Source of the DNA: Escherichia phage PSD2002
DNA length: 64,000 nucleotides
Reading direction: 5' to 3' (one strand)
Sequence record: OK335775.1
In this document: positions 2,416 to 63,416 of the stretch, piece by piece
Position numbering within the stretch: the first letter of the stretch is position 1
Layout: the number at the start of each line of letters is the position of its first letter
The notes under the pieces: generated by a model
What the model was told of the DNA's origin: nothing
Database searches by the model: none
What the model saw: only the letters and a program-made list of their open reading frames with translations
Translations under genes and position numbers: made by a program

Positions 2416-4311
2416 ATGTCCGAACAATTGAATGAGGTATTTGATGGTGATATAAATTTATCTGCTGTCAATTTAAACCCTAAACTTAAAGTCCCACAGA
2501 TTTGGAATATAAAGGCTGAAGGTAACGAGAACCTTGTTGCCCGCATGGTTTCATATACTTCCGAAGGCGATGTAATTCGTCAGGTTAAGCCTGGTGACAA
2601 GTATGTTCATGTCGTTTTAATGAGCCTATCGGCTAAAGGTTCTCCTGCCGAACTCAAAGGTGGATTAGGTACCAATCCTATTTCCGCTATTCGTTCTATA
2701 TTTGATATCGTCTATGAACAGGTCAAGGCCCTTCGTATGGACGCTGTTATGTTCCGTTTTCCTACCAAGAAAATGAAAGGGCAGGAAAAAGCTATACAGA
2801 GGGTATTGGCTAAATTAATAGCCTCTAGAGCAGGCGGACAGTTTAAAGTTCTTGATGCCTTGTATCAATTCACCGGTAAGCATTCGTATGTTTTTATCTA
2901 TCGTAAAAATAAAAATATAGAATCTATAAATGGTATTCCTAATATTAATTTAGAATTGTATACTAAAGTCGAATCTGAAGTCGGTGACGTGTATGTTTCA
3001 AAGAAAACAGGCGAAGATGTTACCAAACTAGAAGCTATAGCTAAGTCCATAGACGAAATAGAAAAATCACGTTCTGATAAAACTGTTATAACCAAAACAA
3101 AGGTTTCTAAACGTGCTGCTATCAATGCTTTATATCCTACAGCAGAGCCTACAGGATTGAGTAAATTTTCGGCAGAGCACAAAAAAGCTTATGCAGATTA
3201 TTCTGCTACTAGTTCCGTTCATTCTTCTGAAGATTCTAAAGAAAGCCAAATAGCTTTAGCCAGTAATAAAATATTAAAAGACACCTCTAAAGAAATGGCA
3301 GAATATTTGGATTATATTTTTAACGGTGTTAATCCATCATTTGAAGTAGACGAGCGCAAACTTAAACTAATTGCTGATATAAAGTTTGCTTTAGAGGCAT
3401 CAGATTCTTTAGATAAATCTAATAGTGTCATAGAGGCTTTAAAATCAGGTAAATCTCATGTAGACATTCTTAGACTAGTCGCTGCGGCCCTTTTAGATGA
3501 TTCAGTTAAAGGTACTTGGGCTAGAGAATCTAAAATCAAGGAAGTAATAAAATCCTTAGTAGCAGTTTATACAAAATCTATCCAACCGTTGTTTAAGATA
3601 TCTGATAATCCTAATTTATCCAAACCTCAAGAAGAGGCAGTCAAAAAGTATACTCGTGGCGGCTACAACCATATAAACAACTTTTTGCTAGGTAAAACAG
3701 ATACCACCGATGAAATGATAAAAATGATTGGTGAGTTGGATTCTACATTTGAAAATGGTACAAAACTTCCTAAAGGAACCATAGTGTATCGTTCTCAGAT
3801 AATGCCTACCGAAATGGCTTTGAATTCTATAAAACATAAGGTGATGTATCTTCCTATTTTTGCATCAACTTCATTGGCTCCTAATATTTTCGGTGAAATG
3901 GGTCATGCTCAATCCAACTTAGACCCTGAAGCTCTTTCTAGCGATATAGATAGTAATCTTGAAGACACCATTAAAAGTGCGACCGGAAGTGCTAGAGATA
4001 CCATTAAGCTAGGGTTAATTATTAAAGGTGCTGATAAAATTAAGGTTATTGTGCCCGGTGACTTGGCTAATTGGTCTACAGAAACCGAAGTAATTCTTCC
4101 TCGTGGGGTTATGCTTAAGATTAATAAAGTATACGGTGCTTCCAAGGGACCTATGGGTTCAATTGGTAAATATGTTTTAGTGGAATGTGAAGTTGTAGCT
4201 ACCGAGCAAATCACAGAGGAAGATTCATATAGCACCGGATTCTCGTTTGGAAATTATGATAGAATTATGTATGAAGATTCTATGGAAAAATTAGCAAATT
4301 TATTTAAATAG
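2416..4311 (+). CDS. alt: Alt-like ADP-ribosyltransferase, paralog 1 (631 aa)
   Basis: RBS AAAGAGGAA; N-terminal block shared with the next two ORFs; C-terminal ART signatures VYRSQ, FASTSL, ETEVILPRG; position next to gene 30 as in T4. Confidence 0.8.
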   Translation: MSEQLNEVFDGDINLSAVNLNPKLKVPQIWNIKAEGNENLVARMVSYTSEGDVIRQVKPGDKYVHVVLMSLSAKGSPAELKGGLGTNPISAIRSIFDIVYEQVKALRMDAVMFRFPTKKMKGQEKAIQRVLAKLIASRAGGQFKVLDALYQFTGKHSYVFIYRKNKNIESINGIPNINLELYTKVESEVGDVYVSKKTGEDVTKLEAIAKSIDEIEKSRSDKTVITKTKVSKRAAINALYPTAEPTGLSKFSAEHKKAYADYSATSSVHSSEDSKESQIALASNKILKDTSKEMAEYLDYIFNGVNPSFEVDERKLKLIADIKFALEASDSLDKSNSVIEALKSGKSHVDILRLVAAALLDDSVKGTWARESKIKEVIKSLVAVYTKSIQPLFKISDNPNLSKPQEEAVKKYTRGGYNHINNFLLGKTDTTDEMIKMIGELDSTFENGTKLPKGTIVYRSQIMPTEMALNSIKHKVMYLPIFASTSLAPNIFGEMGHAQSNLDPEALSSDIDSNLEDTIKSATGSARDTIKLGLIIKGADKIKVIVPGDLANWSTETEVILPRGVMLKINKVYGASKGPMGSIGKYVLVECEVVATEQITEEDSYSTGFSFGNYDRIMYEDSMEKLANLFK

Positions 4312-22432: not shown

Positions 22433-22454
22433 AGGGACCTTACGGTCCCTTTTA
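22433..22454. terminator. hairpin GGGACC-TTAC-GGTCCC with flanking T-runs, between convergent rnlB and gp24 paralog
   Basis: Perfect 6-bp stem; TTTTATTTTT downstream on +. Confidence 0.5.
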
Positions 22455-23732
22455 TTTTTCTAAAGGCGGTAATTTTACGCCGAGATAAGAACTCAATTGA
22501 CTTTGATTAGCCATTTTGTCCATATCAGAACCATCAATAATGCGGGCTTCTTTATCGTCCTTAGCGACGGTATAAGGGTTTGCAGACAATGCATAACGAG
22601 CAAGCAATGCTACTGTAGGTTGTAAGCTTTCCGGGTCAACAATAACCTTAAATTCACCAACTGAAGTATCACCTTCTTCGTCAACCACATTCAAACCTTC
22701 CGTATAAGGCGCATAATATAAAGATGCGACCGTCTGTCCTTCACCCATCTGGGCATTTACACCAACAATAACATAATCACATGGACTATTCATATCAGCA
22801 TAAAGTGGTAGGCCATTCTTTAATATACCATAAGCCAATTCGTCCTGGTCTTCCTTTTTCTCAACCCAACCAGAGGCGGCGAGAATAGCAGCACAACGAG
22901 AACTAGCTACTGCATAAGTCCCGGCAAAAGAAGTCTGTCGTTGGACGGCAGAGTTCATCTCACACATATAATAATATAATGTGCGAGCACGGTCCTGGGC
23001 ATTATCGTAGCGAGGGTTGGTAAGGTCTAATACACCCTTTTCAGAAACACCCTGGACTTTAAAACGAGAGCTCACGGTAATTAATGACTGTAATACATCC
23101 TTATTAATTTCTTCTGCCATTTGAATGCCTAGCAGATTTTCAACAAAATTAGGAGCATTAAACCCGTTAGATTCTAGGTCTTGGGCTAATTCGACTGTCA
23201 ATGAAGTTTTCAGTTTACGTGATTTAACTTCAGATTGCCATTTGTCGATACGGAATCCGGTTTCAGCAATTTCAGGATGGCCTTGTTCAAATTTAGAAGT
23301 AATAGCAGCATCCGACACCATACGGATATGGCCGGCTGCCACTGCTTCAGAAATAACTTCGCTGAGGTTGGTTTCTGTGGTTCCGGCGAAAGGAGATGCT
23401 TCTAGAACTTTAAACACTACGCTTTCAAACTGGAACATATCACCGACCGCATAAGCTGTAGATGAATCAGTAAATTCTGGAATATTTTCACGTTCCGTCA
23501 TACCAATCTGGCCCGCAAATGTTGCTCCACCAAGATAAGTCATTTTGTCGTCAGGATTCAGTACACGTACCCCATACAGAGCAGCAACCGGTTGATTTGT
23601 TTTTTGTTCAGCAACTAGGGCTTTAAAGATTCGTTTATTAGTTGCTTGGGTGTATGAAAGAAGAGCAGGACGGCCAACCGAGCTGGCAGCCGTCAATGTG
23701 GATTCTTTAATTAGGTCTACAATCTTAGACAT
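22452..23732 (-). CDS. second, diverged gp24-like capsid vertex protein paralog
   Basis: 426 aa; alignable along full length to the adjacent gp24 ortholog, shared blocks KSRKLKT, TVELAQD, EINKDVLQSLITVS, RYALSANPYTVAKDDKEAR. Confidence 0.85.
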   Translation of the reverse strand: MSKIVDLIKESTLTAASSVGRPALLSYTQATNKRIFKALVAEQKTNQPVAALYGVRVLNPDDKMTYLGGATFAGQIGMTERENIPEFTDSSTAYAVGDMFQFESVVFKVLEASPFAGTTETNLSEVISEAVAAGHIRMVSDAAITSKFEQGHPEIAETGFRIDKWQSEVKSRKLKTSLTVELAQDLESNGFNAPNFVENLLGIQMAEEINKDVLQSLITVSSRFKVQGVSEKGVLDLTNPRYDNAQDRARTLYYYMCEMNSAVQRQTSFAGTYAVASSRCAAILAASGWVEKKEDQDELAYGILKNGLPLYADMNSPCDYVIVGVNAQMGEGQTVASLYYAPYTEGLNVVDEEGDTSVGEFKVIVDPESLQPTVALLARYALSANPYTVAKDDKEARIIDGSDMDKMANQSQLSSYLGVKLPPLEK

Positions 23733-25015
23733 TAATCAGCCTCGTAAATAATTGCCGGAAGTTTAACGCCAACCAGATAAGACATATTGCTCTGTCCAGC
23801 CATTAAATCCATATTGGTTGCATCGATAACACGAGCTTCTTTATCGTCTTTAGCCACGGTGTACGGGTTAGCTGATAGTGCATAACGAACCATCAGAGAA
23901 ATAGAAGGTTGTAATGAATCCGGGTCAACAATAACCTTATAAGCACCGACGTGTTCTTGGTCATCTAAATCTAAGCCTTCGGTATAGGGAGCGTAGAAAA
24001 TAGAACCGACAACTTCATTACCGCCGTAATTCTCTTTAACACCAACGGTAACATAATCTAATGGACTGTTAACGTCACAAAACAGAGGCAGACCATTCAA
24101 CAAATATCCGTATGCAGTTTCCGGAAGCCAATTATTATCTTCGGGTTTATGTTTTAACCAGCCAGAACCTGCAAGCATTGCAGCCACACGACTTGAAGCC
24201 ACAACAAACGTGCCAGAATAAGAAGTAGTTTTCTGGATTTCAGAATTCATCTCACAAACGAGTTCATAAAGTTTACGTGCAGATTCAGGAGCACTGTCAT
24301 AAGACAAATCGATGATGCCGTTATCAGATACACCAGTAACTTTATAACGTTTGGATACGGTTATTAGAGATTGCAGAACGTCTTTATTAATTTCATCTGC
24401 CATTACTGTAGCCAAGAGGTCTTCTAAGAACGCCGGCGCGTCAAAGCCATTTGATTCCATATCCTGCGCTAATTCTACAGTCAAAGCCGTCTTCAATTTA
24501 CGGGTCTTAACCGGAGCATTCCATTTATTAACCTGGAATACAGCATCAGAGATTTCTACATCACTCGCTTCAAATTTAGTGGTATGGGCAGCATCAGGAA
24601 CCAGACGACATGTTAATGACACTAAACCTTCTTGAAGAGCATCAGCCAATTCTGTGGCGCTAGTGGACGCGAGTGGGCTTGCTTTAAGAGCCTTATAAAC
24701 CACATTCTGGTACTTGAAATATTCACCCTGAGCAATCGCCTGGGCCTTATCTGTGAGTTCTGGGATAGTTTCACGGTCTTTAGAACCAACTTCACCACCA
24801 TAAGAGGCACCTGTCTGGAAACTAAATTCATTATCAGGGGTAAGATATTTGACACCATACAGTGCAGCAATAGGCTGGCTAGTACGTTGTTCGGCGATAA
24901 TATCACGGTAAATCAATTTGGTTGTAGCACGGGTCAAAGCAACAAGATTAGGGCGACCCAATGAGTTGCTGGAAGTAGTTGTTGACTCGCGCAGTAATTC
25001 GTTAATCTTTGCCAT
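23732..25015 (-). CDS. 24: capsid vertex protein gp24
   Basis: 427 aa; N-terminus MAKINELLRESTTT... and overall sequence closely resemble T4 gp24. Confidence 0.9.
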   Translation of the reverse strand: MAKINELLRESTTTSSNSLGRPNLVALTRATTKLIYRDIIAEQRTSQPIAALYGVKYLTPDNEFSFQTGASYGGEVGSKDRETIPELTDKAQAIAQGEYFKYQNVVYKALKASPLASTSATELADALQEGLVSLTCRLVPDAAHTTKFEASDVEISDAVFQVNKWNAPVKTRKLKTALTVELAQDMESNGFDAPAFLEDLLATVMADEINKDVLQSLITVSKRYKVTGVSDNGIIDLSYDSAPESARKLYELVCEMNSEIQKTTSYSGTFVVASSRVAAMLAGSGWLKHKPEDNNWLPETAYGYLLNGLPLFCDVNSPLDYVTVGVKENYGGNEVVGSIFYAPYTEGLDLDDQEHVGAYKVIVDPDSLQPSISLMVRYALSANPYTVAKDDKEARVIDATNMDLMAGQSNMSYLVGVKLPAIIYEAD

Positions 25016-25043
25016 TGCGCTTTCCTTATTGAGGGTATATGTT

Positions 25044-25051
25044 TATTTATA
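25044..25051 (-). promoter_or_regulatory. late promoter TATAAATA upstream of gene 24
   Basis: Complement of TATTTATA, 28 nt upstream of the gp24 ATG. Confidence 0.5.
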
Positions 25052-25057
25052 AAAGTT

Positions 25058-25090
25058 GTTTACAGCAAGATTCTCACATGTTACTATAGA
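25058..25090 (+). promoter_or_regulatory. early promoter (GTTTACA ... TTACTATAG ... ATCAAAACA)
   Basis: Matches the conserved early-promoter core repeated at 59859, 60427 and 63031. Confidence 0.45.
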
Positions 25091-25116
25091 CATATCAAAA
25101 CATGAGGAGATTAAAA

Positions 25117-25383
25117 ATGAACAAGTTAAACTTTATTCGTACTACTCTTTCCGCTCTTGATAAAGACATCAAAGCTCTGGTAGAAAAATTCGGTAACAAT
25201 CCTAATGGTAATGCAGTGAATGCCTTAGTTAAGAAATACGAAGCCATGGCTTATGCTACCGACTTCTGGTGGAACGGTGAATACTCTACCCATACCAAAG
25301 ACAAATCTGGTAACTGGCTGAAAATCCAAGAAAATCGTATTGACTTCCGTGATATCATCAACCGTCGAGTTAAGATTGCATAG
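25117..25383 (+). CDS. hypothetical protein (88 aa), opposite strand between genes 23 and 24
   Basis: Track ORF 25102..25383 trimmed to ATG 6 nt after GAGGAGA; own early promoter; no recognisable motif. Confidence 0.5.
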   Translation: MNKLNFIRTTLSALDKDIKALVEKFGNNPNGNAVNALVKKYEAMAYATDFWWNGEYSTHTKDKSGNWLKIQENRIDFRDIINRRVKIA

Positions 25384-25396
25384 TACAGAAACAAGA

Positions 25397-25418
25397 ATGG
25401 GAGACCGAAGTCTCCCAT
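25397..25418. terminator. perfect 9-bp hairpin ATGGGAGAC-CGAA-GTCTCCCAT between convergent genes
   Basis: Stem-loop seen directly; T-rich tract follows on the reverse strand after gene 23. Confidence 0.45.
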
Positions 25419-25432
25419 AATAAGGTTATATC

Positions 25433-26992
25433 TTAGATACCTTTAACATATACACGACGGAAGTAACCATTCAGACCAAGGCTGTTAACGATGTCAGGCA
25501 TACCGCTCTGAATACGTTTGGTAGGAGCCTGTGCAGACGGGTCAGCGAACGGGTTGATACCGATACCGTAACGAGTTTTGAAGCCCATTACCGGTTGGAA
25601 GTTCTTCGGATCGGAACCACGCAGCGGGGTCAGTGCAACGTATGGAGCATAGTAGATACCTGCGTCCATTTCGTTAGCGCCTTTATAACCGATGGTGAAG
25701 TAATCGGAACGTGCATACTGGTCGATGTAAACGCGATATTTACCACCAAGAACACCGGCAAATACTGCTTTGGTTGTGTCAACGTTGAAACCTTGACCCA
25801 GACCTTGAGCTGCATAACTTACAGAAGTATCAACTGCAGCCAGTACGTTAACTACGTTACGGGAAGCGATGATGAAGTTACCAGCACCACGACCGGTCTG
25901 ACGAGCGATTTCGGCTGCTTCTTTATCAATCTGGAACAGAAGGGCTTTAAAGCTCTCACCGGCCCAACGAGCACCACGGATATCAATCGGGTCCTGGAAG
26001 TCAAACACACCAGCTTTAGCGCCAACGGTGTTGGTCATACCAGATTTACCAACCTGTGCAGAGTAGTTAATCCAATCGATAACTTCACGGTTGATTTCGA
26101 GCATAATTTCGGTAGCAAGGATACCGGACAGTTCAGCATCTGCATCCATACCGTGTACTGCACGAAGGTCCTGTGCCAGTTCGATAGAGTAGCTTGCTTT
26201 CAGCTGACGGGATTTAGCTTCGATAACTTGTTTGTCGATGCGGAAGCCCATTTCGTTCCACGGGTTATCGGTAGAACCGTTAAAGCCTTCCTGAAGTTCG
26301 GCGATAGAAGTAGCCATACCTTCAGCCAATTCAGCCAACTTACCAGCTTCAATCAAAGCGGTAACAGCAACATCCAGTTTAGCGGCATCAGTAGCAGCAG
26401 CATCAACGGTTACGGCTTCGACAGCCTGGAAGTGTGCAGCACCGGTAGCTTCGAAGAAGTGAGAATAAATTTTACCAACTTCCAGAACTTTGCTTGCAGC
26501 CAGTGCTTCGAAAGTTTCAGCAGCACCCTGACCAGAGAACATAGCGTCTGGAGAATACATCGGATGGAAAGCTTCTTTAGCGCCAGAAGCGATAGGGTCT
26601 TTACCATAAACTGCACGAAGGGCAAATACCTGGCCGGTAGGGTTATTCAGAGGCTGAACACCACAAATATCAAAAGCAATCAGATGAGGAATAGCACGAC
26701 GAACCATACCCATTACTGCCGGCCCAATCTGAGTTACAGCACCAGAAGTCTGGCCAGCTGCGATATTGGTAGCATCATAACCGTGGTCACCACCAATTTC
26801 AGCTTCGGTCAGGAAAGAACCAAATGCTTCAGAGATTTTTTCATCACGATATTCCGGAGCAGTCAGGATGTCTTGTTCCTGGTTTTCGAAAATTTTAGCG
26901 ATGATAGCTTGTTTAGAAGCACCCACGATTTCAGGAAGGGCTTCGTTTTCCAGCAGAGCGGACCATTTTTGAACTAATGCATTCTTTTTCAT
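25433..26992 (-). CDS. 23: major capsid protein gp23
   Basis: 519 aa; near-colinear with T4 gp23 as recalled (QAIIAKIFENQE...GSFLTEAEIGGDHGY...YYAPYVALTPLRGSDPKNFQPVMGFKTRYGIGINPF). Confidence 0.95.
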   Translation of the reverse strand: MKKNALVQKWSALLENEALPEIVGASKQAIIAKIFENQEQDILTAPEYRDEKISEAFGSFLTEAEIGGDHGYDATNIAAGQTSGAVTQIGPAVMGMVRRAIPHLIAFDICGVQPLNNPTGQVFALRAVYGKDPIASGAKEAFHPMYSPDAMFSGQGAAETFEALAASKVLEVGKIYSHFFEATGAAHFQAVEAVTVDAAATDAAKLDVAVTALIEAGKLAELAEGMATSIAELQEGFNGSTDNPWNEMGFRIDKQVIEAKSRQLKASYSIELAQDLRAVHGMDADAELSGILATEIMLEINREVIDWINYSAQVGKSGMTNTVGAKAGVFDFQDPIDIRGARWAGESFKALLFQIDKEAAEIARQTGRGAGNFIIASRNVVNVLAAVDTSVSYAAQGLGQGFNVDTTKAVFAGVLGGKYRVYIDQYARSDYFTIGYKGANEMDAGIYYAPYVALTPLRGSDPKNFQPVMGFKTRYGIGINPFADPSAQAPTKRIQSGMPDIVNSLGLNGYFRRVYVKGI

Positions 26993-59480: not shown

Positions 59481-59810
59481 ATGAAAACATATAACGAATT
59501 TGTACAAACTGAAGCAATTAATGAAGTAGCCATCCCTAAACCGGCTAAAGCTGACGGTACTGAGTACTACCATATTGAAACATCTTTTGATGCAGCTTCA
59601 GATATGGCTAACGGGCTTGGTGATTTCATCCGTCAAGCTAAGTCCGACCTGGCTAAATTTACAAAGACCCTTGATAAAGAGCAAAAGAAACCTTTCTCGG
59701 ATCTGGCTAAAAAACTGGACGCGTTAAATGACAAGGTCTTTAAAGAAGTTTACCACGGTATGATTGGTCTTACCCGTGAATTCAATGCTGAAGTTAAAAA
59801 ACTTCCCTAA
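59481..59810 (+). CDS. internal-protein-like gene 1 with capsid-targeting N-terminus (MKTYNEFVQTE...)
   Basis: N-terminus matches the T4 internal-protein capsid-targeting consensus MKTYQEFIAE; gp21-type (L/I)-x-E sites; position adjacent to 57B as T4 ipI. Confidence 0.7.
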   Translation: MKTYNEFVQTEAINEVAIPKPAKADGTEYYHIETSFDAASDMANGLGDFIRQAKSDLAKFTKTLDKEQKKPFSDLAKKLDALNDKVFKEVYHGMIGLTREFNAEVKKLP

Positions 59811-59925: not shown

Positions 59926-60150
59926 ATGAAAACTTATCAAGAATTTATTACCGAAGCTAAAAGACATGAAGATGAACTGCCAATTGTTACAAAAACCTTT
60001 GATGGCACACTGGCTGATTTTAAAAAAGTCCCTAGTGATAAGCTTGCTAAATTGACTGGCTCTATCAATGAAAAAGGTGGCAAGGTCACATTTTCTGCTC
60101 AAGGCACTGCCAATCTTAAAAAACTTTTGAAAGCCGCAGGCGTAGAATAA
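59926..60150 (+). CDS. internal-protein-like gene 2 (MKTYQEFITEAK...)
   Basis: Track ORF 59857..60150 begins at GTG inside the promoter; ATG at 59926 gives the MKTYQEF capsid-targeting N-terminus. Confidence 0.65.
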   Translation: MKTYQEFITEAKRHEDELPIVTKTFDGTLADFKKVPSDKLAKLTGSINEKGGKVTFSAQGTANLKKLLKAAGVE

Positions 60151-60151
60151 A

Positions 60152-60424
60152 ATGAAATCATACCAAGAATTTATCGCTGAATCTATTCTTAATGAAGAAG
60201 TAAAAATTAACAAATCTGTTAAGACCATGATTGATAATATAAATCATCTCTATAACATCGATTTGACTAATCACGTAACTTTAGGCAATAAGCGAAACTT
60301 TTTTGTATTTGATACTTCAGAACTTGACCAGAATCAAATTAACAATATTGAACGTTTTGCTAATGAAAAAGGGCTGCGCCACGAGACAGCCGGTTATAAA
60401 AAGTATGCAATTTATTTAAAATAA
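60152..60424 (+). CDS. internal-protein-like gene 3 (MKSYQEFIAESILNEE...)
   Basis: Capsid-targeting-like N-terminus with I-A-E and L-N-E gp21-type sites. Confidence 0.65.
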   Translation: MKSYQEFIAESILNEEVKINKSVKTMIDNINHLYNIDLTNHVTLGNKRNFFVFDTSELDQNQINNIERFANEKGLRHETAGYKKYAIYLK

Positions 60425-62399: not shown

Positions 62400-62864
62400 A
62401 TGAAAACTTACAATGAATTTTTGACTGAACAATCTAGTTCAGATGTAAAAGCCGCTGCTATTGCAGCAATTCAAGCAGGTAAATATTCTTACAAAGACGC
62501 CTCTGATGAAGAACGTTTCCGTTTTATTAAAGATTTTAAAGCCGAAGGTTTTACTAATGCTAATACTGTTAGCCGAGTTTTTAAAAGCCTAGCTGCATCA
62601 GGTGAATTGTTCCAGAAAGCTACAGGTAAAGCACCTGCGTCAAAAGCGGACCCTAAAGCCGCTCAAGAAAAAAATATCGCCAAAGGAATTATTTCTAAGT
62701 ATGAAGCAATTCTTAAAGAGCTTTTAGTAATCAAAACAGAAGGCCAGAAACTGGCACGAGCACATAGCTTCAAAGATAATCCACATGCTCACGACTTAGA
62801 GTATGTTGAAGATATTCAGAAAATCATCAAAGACCGTATCTGGTCTGCTAAACAAATCAAATAA
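62400..62864 (+). CDS. internal-protein-like gene 4 (MKTYNEFLTEQ...)
   Basis: Capsid-targeting-like N-terminus with L-T-E gp21-type site; late promoter. Confidence 0.65.
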   Translation: MKTYNEFLTEQSSSDVKAAAIAAIQAGKYSYKDASDEERFRFIKDFKAEGFTNANTVSRVFKSLAASGELFQKATGKAPASKADPKAAQEKNIAKGIISKYEAILKELLVIKTEGQKLARAHSFKDNPHAHDLEYVEDIQKIIKDRIWSAKQIK

Positions 62865-63361: not shown

Positions 63362-63397
63362 GTTTACATGGGCTCATGATTAAGATATTATGAGCCC
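63362..63397 (+). promoter_or_regulatory. early promoter (GTTTACA, 17-bp spacer, TATTAT) with 8-bp inverted repeat across spacer and -10
   Basis: GGGCTCAT at 63370-63377 pairs with ATGAGCCC at 63390-63397. Confidence 0.45.
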
Positions 63398-63416
63398 ATA
63401 ATTTGAGGAGAACATA

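What the first reader, a model, noticed from the sequence alone, without database searches (positions are those of the whole stretch)
25058..25383. Opposite-strand early gene between the capsid genes 23 and 24
An 88-aa ORF with its own early-promoter cassette and a strong RBS lies between the late genes 23 and 24 on the other strand, followed by a 9-bp hairpin. The promoter cassette matches those in the internal-protein region, suggesting a mobile-module insertion. No motif recognised (contains WWNGEY).
Basis: partly seen in the sequence, partly recalled or inferred. Interest (0 to 1): 0.45.

Follow-up and report, generated by a model that had tools for sequence, protein, structure and literature searches.

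The report
Shuffled early gene between capsid genes
A small, genuine but dispensable early gene of unknown function sits backwards between two capsid genes of a T4-like coliphage, in a slot where related phages carry a very different version, a homing endonuclease, or nothing.

Summary
Window 25117..25383 (+) encodes an 88-aa protein between late genes 24 (23732..25015, -) and 23 (25433..26992, -). It has a T4-type early promoter (GTTTACA-N17-TGnTACTAT), a GAGGAG ribosome-binding site and a 9-bp hairpin downstream. The window is a JS98/Bp7-like Dhakavirus. The gene is JS98 orf173 / RB69ORF188c / PHROG 6003, annotated "hypothetical" in more than 200 phage genomes.

It is a real gene: dN/dS is 0.05-0.13. 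It is dispensable, because three natural Dhakaviruses lack exactly this 294-bp leader plus ORF. It is also shuffled: two metagenomic T4-like lineages carry an ORF type that does not match their capsid genes. The slot is empty in most T4-like genera, holds ORF plus segD in IME08, and holds segD alone in T4 behind a homologous promoter. T4 omics class segD RNA as early.

The hairpin is gene 23's terminator and is also present at empty sites, so it is not part of the module.

Distant homologues lie in the small-ORF arrays of rV5-like phages. The protein is basic, with a confidently predicted alpha/alpha/beta-hairpin/alpha fold, and has no detectable relative of known function.

This is an ordinary T4-type accessory "ORFan" cassette. 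The biochemical function remains unknown.

The parts
23732..25015 (-). Gene 24a (capsid vertex protein), the left flank of the slot
   Evidence: 427-aa ORF; annotated gp24 in JS98 and IME08
25044..25051 (-). Late promoter of gene 24 (reverse complement TATAAATA), back-to-back with the early promoter's upstream A/T-rich region
   Evidence: Read directly from the sequence; TATTTATA is invariant in all nine aligned phages, including those with empty sites
25034..25087 (+). T4-type early promoter: A/T-rich upstream region, -35 GTTTACA (25058-64), 17-nt spacer, TGn (25079-81), -10 TACTAT (25082-87). The transcription start near 25094 is inferred.
   Evidence: Homologous to the region upstream of T4 segD, and segD is early RNA in T4.
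25082..25102 (+). 21-nt cassette core TACTATAGACATATCAAAACA, shared with three promoters in the internal-protein region
   Evidence: 4 copies against 0 expected
25104..25109 (+). Shine-Dalgarno GAGGAG, 7 nt before the start codon
25117..25383 (+). 88-aa basic protein (JS98 orf173 / RB69ORF188c family, PHROG 6003)
   Evidence: PHROG 6003 at E = 6.8e-50; dN/dS 0.05-0.13; AlphaFold2 pLDDT 92.3
25090..25383 (+). The 294-bp leader plus ORF that is precisely absent from the Dhakaviruses dhabil, dhaeg and CLB_P2. The junction is TACTATAG|TACAG, with ATAG microhomology.
25397..25418 (-). Gene 23 intrinsic terminator: 9-bp stem, UUCG loop and T-rich tail on the minus strand. It forms the right-hand boundary of the slot and is met in the reverse orientation by the ORF transcript.
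   Evidence: present at the empty sites of RB3 and Mineola
25433..26992 (-). Gene 23 (major capsid protein), the right flank of the slot

Best explanation
This is a self-contained early accessory-gene cassette. It occupies a small plasticity slot inside the otherwise conserved head-gene block of a JS98-like T4-type phage.

Expression (inferred from sequence and from T4 data at the same slot): right after infection, host sigma-70 RNA polymerase fires at the UP/-35/TGn/-10 promoter, which sits back-to-back with gene 24's late promoter. It makes a short leftward-independent mRNA starting near 25094. The strong ribosome-binding site drives synthesis of an 88-aa soluble, basic protein. The transcript then meets gene 23's terminator hairpin from the wrong side. 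There the hairpin can stabilise the 3' end, but it has no U-tract, so some read-through antisense to gene 23 is likely.

Evolution (shown): the gene is under strong purifying selection, yet natural phages do without it. The segment between the conserved promoter and the conserved hairpin has been exchanged between lineages, has been lost by microhomology deletion, and has been joined (IME08) or replaced (T4) by the homing endonuclease gene segD, which uses the same promoter.

Function (inferred, low confidence): a non-enzymatic small binder acting early on an acidic host target, either nucleic acid or protein. That would make it a host-takeover or counter-defence accessory factor.
For: - Real gene: 15 of the 20 distinct Dhakavirus pairs give dN/dS 0.05-0.10 and the other five give 0.10-0.13, with dS up to 0.69. 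PHROG 6003 matches at E = 6.8e-50. AlphaFold2 gives pLDDT 92.3 for a1 3-25, a2 31-48, beta-hairpin 52-61/67-71 and a3 77-87.
- Early class: all four promoter elements are present, matching the description in PMC2988021 and the PST/T4 consensus TTTACW-N17-TAYWAT in PMC4122927. The promoter and leader are homologous to those upstream of T4 segD. T4 segD is classed early-RNA/middle-protein and the protein is detected (PMC9697503 supplements).
- Same-site homologues occur in Dhakavirus, Gaprivervirus (about 64% identity) and Mosigvirus (about 33%).
- The site is empty in Tequatrovirus RB3, Jiaodavirus Mineola and Karamvirus CC31. T4 has segD only. IME08 has ORF plus segD, with TAA-AAT-ATG at the junction.
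- Dispensable: dhabil, dhaeg and CLB_P2 carry an exact 294-bp loss. Their 74-nt junction is 100% identical to the two flanks in JS10.
- Shuffled: L025 has gp23 at 92% and gp24a at 93% identity to the window, but its ORF is only 27% identical to the window's and 62% to the Mosigvirus type. L028 has gp23 at 84% and gp24 at 69%, but its ORF is 73% identical to the window's. Identity between the window and L025 breaks just after the -35 box and resumes at the hairpin. Each arrangement was seen in two samples.
- Accessory context elsewhere: homologues sit in long arrays of small ORFs in rV5-like phages of about 140-150 kb, and next to the tail-tip gene of a siphovirus-like contig. None was found in 185,579 bacterial and archaeal genomes.
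- Basic character is conserved: pI is 9.2-9.9 in 16 of 17 members that share only about 30% identity.
Against: - There are no transcript or protein data for this phage. Early timing is inferred from the promoter sequence and from T4 data on a different cargo gene.
- The only directly observed rearrangement is a 4-nt microhomology deletion, not recombination between repeated cassettes.
- The promoter lacks the adjacent stem-loop of canonical PeSLs.
- The discordance rests on two metagenomic lineages.
- Occupancy of the same site in three genera is also compatible with largely vertical descent plus fast divergence.
Confidence: 0.72

Rival explanations
1. The gene is a vertically inherited ancestral gene of the JS98/VR7/RB69 group. 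It diverged quickly and was lost repeatedly, with no horizontal exchange of the module.
For: It sits at the same site, in the same orientation, with a homologous promoter in all three genera. Small early genes of T4-like phages commonly evolve fast. The observed loss is a simple deletion.
Against: L025 pairs Dhakavirus-like capsid genes (92-93% identity) with a Mosigvirus-type ORF (27% to the window). L028 shows the converse pattern. The identity breakpoints fall at the promoter and the hairpin. The Dhakavirus and Mosigvirus clades are as far from each other (about 33%) as either is from homologues in rV5-like phages.
Confidence: 0.15
2. The functional element is the early promoter, which makes antisense ('anti-late') RNA against gene 23 or insulates the late genes. 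The ORF is incidental cargo.
For: The promoter is retained in the deletion phages and in T4 with a different cargo. On the plus strand the hairpin has no U-tract, so read-through into gene 23 antisense is plausible.
Against: The ORF is under strong purifying selection and has a strong ribosome-binding site. Most T4-like genera have neither promoter nor ORF at this site. Promoter retention in dhabil is explained by how recent the deletion is, since the flanks are 100% identical to JS10.
Confidence: 0.05
3. The ORF is a component of the segD homing-endonuclease element, for example a partner, an immunity factor or a carried target fragment.
For: In IME08-type phages segD starts 3 nt after the ORF's stop codon, has no promoter of its own and shares the transcript. 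T4 carries segD in the same slot.
Against: Most carriers have the ORF without segD, and T4 has segD without the ORF. Homologues in rV5-like phages have no endonuclease neighbour. There is no nuclease or DNA-binding motif.
Confidence: 0.05
4. It is a head-morphogenesis accessory protein, as its position in the capsid gene cluster might suggest.
For: Only its location between genes 23 and 24.
Against: It is on the opposite strand with an early-type promoter and no TATAAATA late promoter on its own strand. It lacks the MKTYxEF capsid-targeting sequence seen in the window's internal-protein ORFs. It is absent from most T4-like phages that have the same capsid genes. Its homologues in other phages lie in early-gene arrays.
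Confidence: 0.03

Closest known systems
JS98 orf173 / IME08 orf166 / VR7ORF190c / RB69ORF188c (PHROG 6003, unknown function)
   Same: Same protein family at the same site. It is 98% identical to JS98 orf173 and 100% identical to the Bp7, QL01 and E33 proteins.
   Different: Nothing differs; this is that gene. No function is recorded for any member, and no paper on it was found.
PeSL (promoter-early stem-loop) / ORFan cassettes of T4-type phages (Arbiol et al. 2010, PMC2839356; Comeau et al. 2014, PMC4122927)
   Same: It has a strong early promoter matching the PST/T4-type consensus TTTACW-N17-TAYWAT. The promoter core is repeated in the genome. It is associated with a small ORFan that varies between close relatives. 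It lies in the conserved core next to a plastic, nonessential gene, as the 2014 paper describes.
   Different: No stem-loop adjoins the promoter (z = 0.28). The only hairpin is gene 23's terminator at the far end. The cassette is not flanked by two PeSLs. The one loss observed used 4-nt microhomology.
T4 segD slot (free-standing GIY-YIG homing endonuclease between genes 23 and 24, in the opposite orientation)
   Same: Same intergenic slot and same orientation, with a homologous late-promoter/early-promoter/leader region and a homologous terminator hairpin. The slot is transcribed early in T4.
   Different: The cargo is unrelated: a 223-aa GIY-YIG nuclease against an 88-aa protein without motifs. 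IME08 carries both in tandem.
Small basic early host-takeover proteins of T4 (for example MotB, PMC6070864)
   Same: Early promoter, dispensable, small and basic. This is an analogy only.
   Different: There is no sequence or fold similarity to any of them. DNA binding and toxicity were not tested.

Membership tests
T4-type early promoter (UP/-35/TGn/-10 class; Hinton 2010, PMC2988021) | -35 element close to (G)TTTAC(A/T) | tested here: met
   GTTTACA at 25058-25064
T4-type early promoter (UP/-35/TGn/-10 class; Hinton 2010, PMC2988021) | 17-nt spacer, extended -10 TGn and a -10 box TAYWAT | tested here: met
   17-nt spacer, TGT at 25079-81 and TACTAT at 25082-87. The consensus is taken from PMC4122927.
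T4-type early promoter (UP/-35/TGn/-10 class; Hinton 2010, PMC2988021) | A/T-rich UP-like region upstream of the -35 box | tested here: met
   Positions 25034-25057 are 20/24 A/T
T4-type early promoter (UP/-35/TGn/-10 class; Hinton 2010, PMC2988021) | Transcription within the first minutes of infection by unmodified host RNA polymerase | not testable with these tools
   Indirect only: the homologous promoter region in T4 precedes segD, which is classed as early RNA
PeSL cassette (Arbiol 2010 / Comeau 2014) | Early promoter of the genome's repeated consensus type | tested here: met
   The 21-nt core occurs 4 times in the window against 0 expected
PeSL cassette (Arbiol 2010 / Comeau 2014) | A stable stem-loop (terminator) directly adjoining the promoter | tested here: not met
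   Folding 25030-25105 gives -3.7 kcal/mol, z = 0.28. The upstream sequence is the gene 24 late promoter and ribosome-binding site.
PeSL cassette (Arbiol 2010 / Comeau 2014) | Association with ORFans that are inserted, deleted or replaced between close relatives | tested here: met
   Deletion in dhabil, dhaeg and CLB_P2; allele replacement in L025 and L028; segD addition or replacement
PeSL cassette (Arbiol 2010 / Comeau 2014) | Recombination between two flanking PeSLs (mini-circle formation) | not testable with these tools
   Only one promoter is at the locus. The observed deletion junction is ATAG microhomology.
PHROG 6003 / JS98 orf173 family | Full-length profile match | tested here: met
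   E = 6.8e-50, residues 1-88 against profile positions 1-88 of 90
GIY-YIG seg homing endonuclease | GIY-YIG catalytic domain | tested here: not met
   No Pfam hit above noise. At 88 aa the protein is too short, and it is unrelated to SegD.
T4 internal proteins | N-terminal capsid-targeting sequence MKTY(Q/N)EF... cleaved by gp21 | tested here: not met
   The ORF begins MNKLNFIR. The window's internal-protein-like ORFs at 59481, about 59926, 60152 and 62400 carry the motif.

The most novel reading that the evidence does not exclude
The 88-aa basic alpha/beta protein may be the founding member of a new family of early phage effectors. Candidates include a counter-defence protein or a nucleic-acid or nucleoid-targeting host-takeover factor. 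The family would be traded as a ready-to-express module between T-even-like, rV5-like and siphovirus coliphages. The slot's promoter would also drive segD in T4, which would resolve the long-standing 'segD has no promoter' puzzle.
Probability: 0.25. Interest if true: 0.55.

Novelty: new member of a known kind. Interest (0 to 1): 0.3.

Why it matters
On its own this is modest: one more uncharacterised early ORFan in a T4-like phage, already annotated as hypothetical. It has some value as a clean natural example of modular exchange inside the conserved head-gene block. The slot is bounded by a conserved early promoter and gene 23's terminator, and it exists in five states: empty, ORF, ORF plus segD, segD only, and promoter only. 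Natural isogenic-like pairs (JS10 versus dhabil/dhaeg/CLB_P2) are ready-made for testing what the protein does. As a by-product, the comparison gives T4 segD a plausible early promoter, consistent with its early RNA in omics data.

Tried and rejected
- The afdb50 fold library was unavailable.
- A full HMMER scan of 1.84 billion representative proteins gave 10 hits. Two long repeat proteins among them are spurious.
- Bacterial and archaeal genomes contain no relative.
- Literature: no paper mentions RB69ORF188c-type genes or their accession numbers. The JS98 genome paper and Miller 2003 are not held in the library. The AV110 early-protein screen chose its genes by T4 homology, so it skipped this ORF.
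- Rejected idea: that segD insertion replaced the ORF's C-terminus. The '1-72 only' tblastn coverage is a masking artefact. The C-terminus is intact in IME08 apart from the last two codons.
- Rejected idea: a canonical PeSL with a promoter-adjacent stem-loop.
- Base composition is not anomalous.

Full report
**What the window is**

The 601 bases around the finding are 99.3-99.5% identical to the Escherichia phages vB_EcoM-E33, Bp7 and QL01, and 96.8% identical to JS98. The window is therefore a JS98-like T4-type phage, genus Dhakavirus (taxonomy). Late genes run on the minus strand here. Gene 23 is at 25433..26992 and gene 24a is at 23732..25015. A second gene 24 paralogue lies at 22452..23732.

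**Checking the observation**

The ORF is 25117..25383 (+) and encodes 88 aa. An upstream in-frame ATG at 25102 would add five residues, but the GAGGAG Shine-Dalgarno (25104-25109, 7 nt before the 25117 ATG) lies inside that extension. JS98 annotates the 88-aa form.

The promoter is GTTTACA (25058-64), a 17-nt spacer, TGT (25079-81) and TACTAT (25082-87). An 83% A/T stretch lies upstream. The hairpin at 25397-25418 has nine pairs and is stable on either strand.

The claim about the internal-protein region is correct and specific. The 21-mer TACTATAGMCMTATCAAAACA occurs four times in the window (25082, 59883, 60451, 63054), against none in 100 shuffles. The last three copies lie among ORFs that begin MKTY(Q/N)EF, the internal-protein targeting signature. 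Other early-type promoters in the window lack this extended core.

There is one correction. The terminator scan calls the hairpin only on the minus strand, where it reads C(UUCG)G plus a T-rich tail, 14 nt past the gene 23 stop codon. The same hairpin follows gene 23 in phages whose slot is empty. It is gene 23's terminator.

**Is it a real gene?**

Yes. It matches PHROG 6003 (unknown function) over its full length at E = 6.8e-50. Among Dhakavirus copies that differ at up to 0.69 synonymous substitutions per site, dN/dS is 0.05-0.13.

AlphaFold2 with a 17-sequence alignment gives a confident model (pLDDT 92.3). It has helix 3-25, helix 31-48, a beta-hairpin at 52-61/67-71 and helix 77-87.

**Is it an early gene?**

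By sequence the promoter has all four elements that define T4 early promoters: UP, -35, TGn and -10 (PMC2988021). It also fits the TTTACW-N17-TAYWAT consensus reported for T4-type cassettes (PMC4122927). No MotA box or TATAAATA lies on its strand.

The intergenic region was aligned across nine phages. The gene 24 late promoter (TATTTATA, the reverse complement of TATAAATA), the -35 box, TGn, the -10 box, GGAG and AAAATGAA are all conserved. The region upstream of T4 segD is a clear homologue and is closest to that of the metagenomic phage L028.

A 2010 review stated that no segD promoter could be found and predicted vanishingly low expression (PMC2988022). However, time-resolved T4 omics class segD as early RNA/middle protein and detect the protein (PMC9697503 supplements). 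That is indirect experimental support that the promoter of this slot fires early. Timing in this phage itself remains inferred.

**Distribution and states of the slot**

tblastn finds the protein in 233 phage records. Identity is at least 90% in 86 records (Dhakavirus), 60-80% in 32 (Gaprivervirus, VR7-like) and below 60% in 115 (mainly Mosigvirus, RB69-like). Every T4-like (Tevenvirinae) carrier whose context was inspected has it between genes 24 and 23 on the opposite strand. The one non-T4-like hit whose context was inspected, ABPH49 (Vequintavirinae), carries its homologue in an array of small early ORFs instead.

A 1.9-kb probe spanning the junction matched 1,549 records. Among those:
- Tequatrovirus (for example RB3), Jiaodavirus (Mineola), Karamvirus (CC31) and others have an empty site. 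There the late promoter is followed directly by the terminator.
- T4 and a few others have segD only.
- IME08-type phages have the ORF followed by segD. The ORF's stop TAA and the segD ATG are 3 nt apart, and segD has no promoter of its own. Their SegD is 56% identical to T4 SegD.

**Loss**

The Dhakaviruses dhabil, dhaeg and CLB_P2 keep the promoter but then jump from TACTATAG straight to TACAGAAACAAG and the hairpin. Their 74-nt junction is 100% identical to the two flanks in JS10, which are separated there by 294 bp. The ends share only ATAG.

In window coordinates the lost segment is 25090..25383. These phages were isolated on MG1655 and 55989, so the gene is dispensable on those hosts.

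**Exchange**

The metagenomic phage L025 (173-kb contig, same arrangement in a second sample) has gp23 at 92% and gp24a at 93% identity to the window. Its ORF, however, is only 27% identical to the window's and 62-64% identical to the Mosigvirus-type ORFs.

L028 shows the reverse pattern. Its gp23 is 84% and its gp24 is 69% identical to the window, and its hairpin is T4-like, yet its ORF is 73% identical to the window's.

At the DNA level, identity between the window and L025 breaks just after the -35 box and resumes at AAACAAGAATGGGAG.

The three clades of the family are roughly equidistant at 27-44% identity: Dhaka/Gapriver-type, Mosig-type, and non-T4 phages. Together these results indicate that the segment between promoter and terminator has moved between lineages. 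The conserved promoter, hairpin and capsid genes provide the homology for that.

**Beyond T4-like phages**

A full profile scan of 1.84 billion representative proteins, plus a profile search of 5.8 billion, found only about 22 clusters. The most distant members lie in two settings:
- rV5-like myoviruses of about 140-150 kb (Acinetobacter phage ABPH49, classified in Vequintavirinae, and contigs L007 and L031-L033), inside long arrays of small same-strand ORFs.
- A siphovirus-like contig, next to the GpJ-type tail-tip gene.

No relative was found in 185,579 bacterial and archaeal genomes.

**Function**

No sequence or structure comparison gave a lead. The protein is hydrophilic, has no membrane segment, and is consistently basic: pI is 9.2-9.9 in 16 of 17 members that share only about 30% identity. 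Invariant residues are K3, F6, L11, L14, G31-N32, N35 and Q71. WWNGEY is specific to the Dhakavirus clade.

My committed reading, at low confidence, is a small non-enzymatic binder of an acidic partner (nucleic acid or protein) acting early. That would make it a host-takeover or counter-defence accessory factor. This is inferred from its timing, dispensability, mobility, genomic company and charge, not from any demonstrated activity.

**Comparison with known systems**

The gene itself is already catalogued (JS98 orf173, RB69ORF188c) but uncharacterised. No paper on it was found.

The arrangement works like the PeSL/ORFan cassettes of Arbiol et al. and Comeau et al., with a repeated early promoter, a variable ORFan and plasticity inside the core genome. 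It fails one defining feature, however. No stem-loop adjoins the promoter (z = 0.28), and the slot has one promoter and one borrowed terminator rather than two flanking PeSLs. I therefore describe it as PeSL-like in behaviour and do not file it as a canonical PeSL.

**Verdict**

What it describes is an ordinary kind of T4-type accessory cassette that is already annotated in many genomes. Interest is modest. It comes from the unknown protein family, the well-resolved set of natural slot states, and the by-product that T4 segD appears to sit behind a homologous early promoter.

Noticed in passing
L006 (T4 NC_000866) 1234-1323, the region upstream of segD; aligned with window 25013-25135: T4 segD is preceded by TTTACA-N17-TATTAT with a TGn extension and a GGAG leader. 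This region is homologous to the early promoter and leader of the 88-aa ORF in relatives. A 2010 review said no segD promoter could be found, yet T4 omics class segD RNA as early.
   Followed up: partly
window 22452-23732 and 23732-25015 (-): There are two tandem gene 24 (capsid vertex) paralogues, 55% identical to each other. JS98, IME08 and VR7 annotate them as 24a/24b. Mosigvirus and T4 have a single copy.
   Followed up: partly
L013 (phage dhabil MN850621) 1217-1339; also dhaeg and CLB_P2: After loss of the ORF an orphan early promoter remains. It points straight into the gene 23 terminator and the antisense strand of gene 23.
   Followed up: partly
L002 (IME08) 3470-3495: segD begins 3 nt after the ORF's stop codon (TAA-AAT-ATG), with no promoter and no clear Shine-Dalgarno of its own. 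This suggests co-transcription with the accessory gene and possibly translational coupling.
   Followed up: partly
window 63362-63410 (+): An early-type promoter (GTTTACA ... TATTAT) has its spacer and -10 box enclosed by a strong inverted repeat, ATGGGCTCAT...ATGAGCCCAT (-14.4 kcal/mol, z = -5.2). This is closer to the published PeSL design than the promoter of the finding.
   Followed up: no
window 59481-59810, ~59926-60150, 60152-60424, 62400-62864 (+): Four ORFs start MKTY(Q/N)EF or MKSYQEF, the capsid-targeting sequence of T4 internal proteins. Copies of the 21-nt promoter core are interspersed among them.
   Followed up: no
P0013 (L025 3501-3773): One source names this 90-aa family member 'NADPH-dependent curcumin reductase CurA'. 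This is evidently a mis-annotation.
   Followed up: no
P0021 (160 aa, 701-bp ENA contig): The C-terminus of this protein carries about 35 residues nearly identical to the Dhakavirus-type ORF, fused to unrelated sequence. It is probably a chimeric or misassembled short contig.
   Followed up: no
L002 (IME08) 1-330: IME08 has a tail-fibre-like gene next to 24b, where JS98 and the window have rnlB. This is another local difference within the genus.
   Followed up: no
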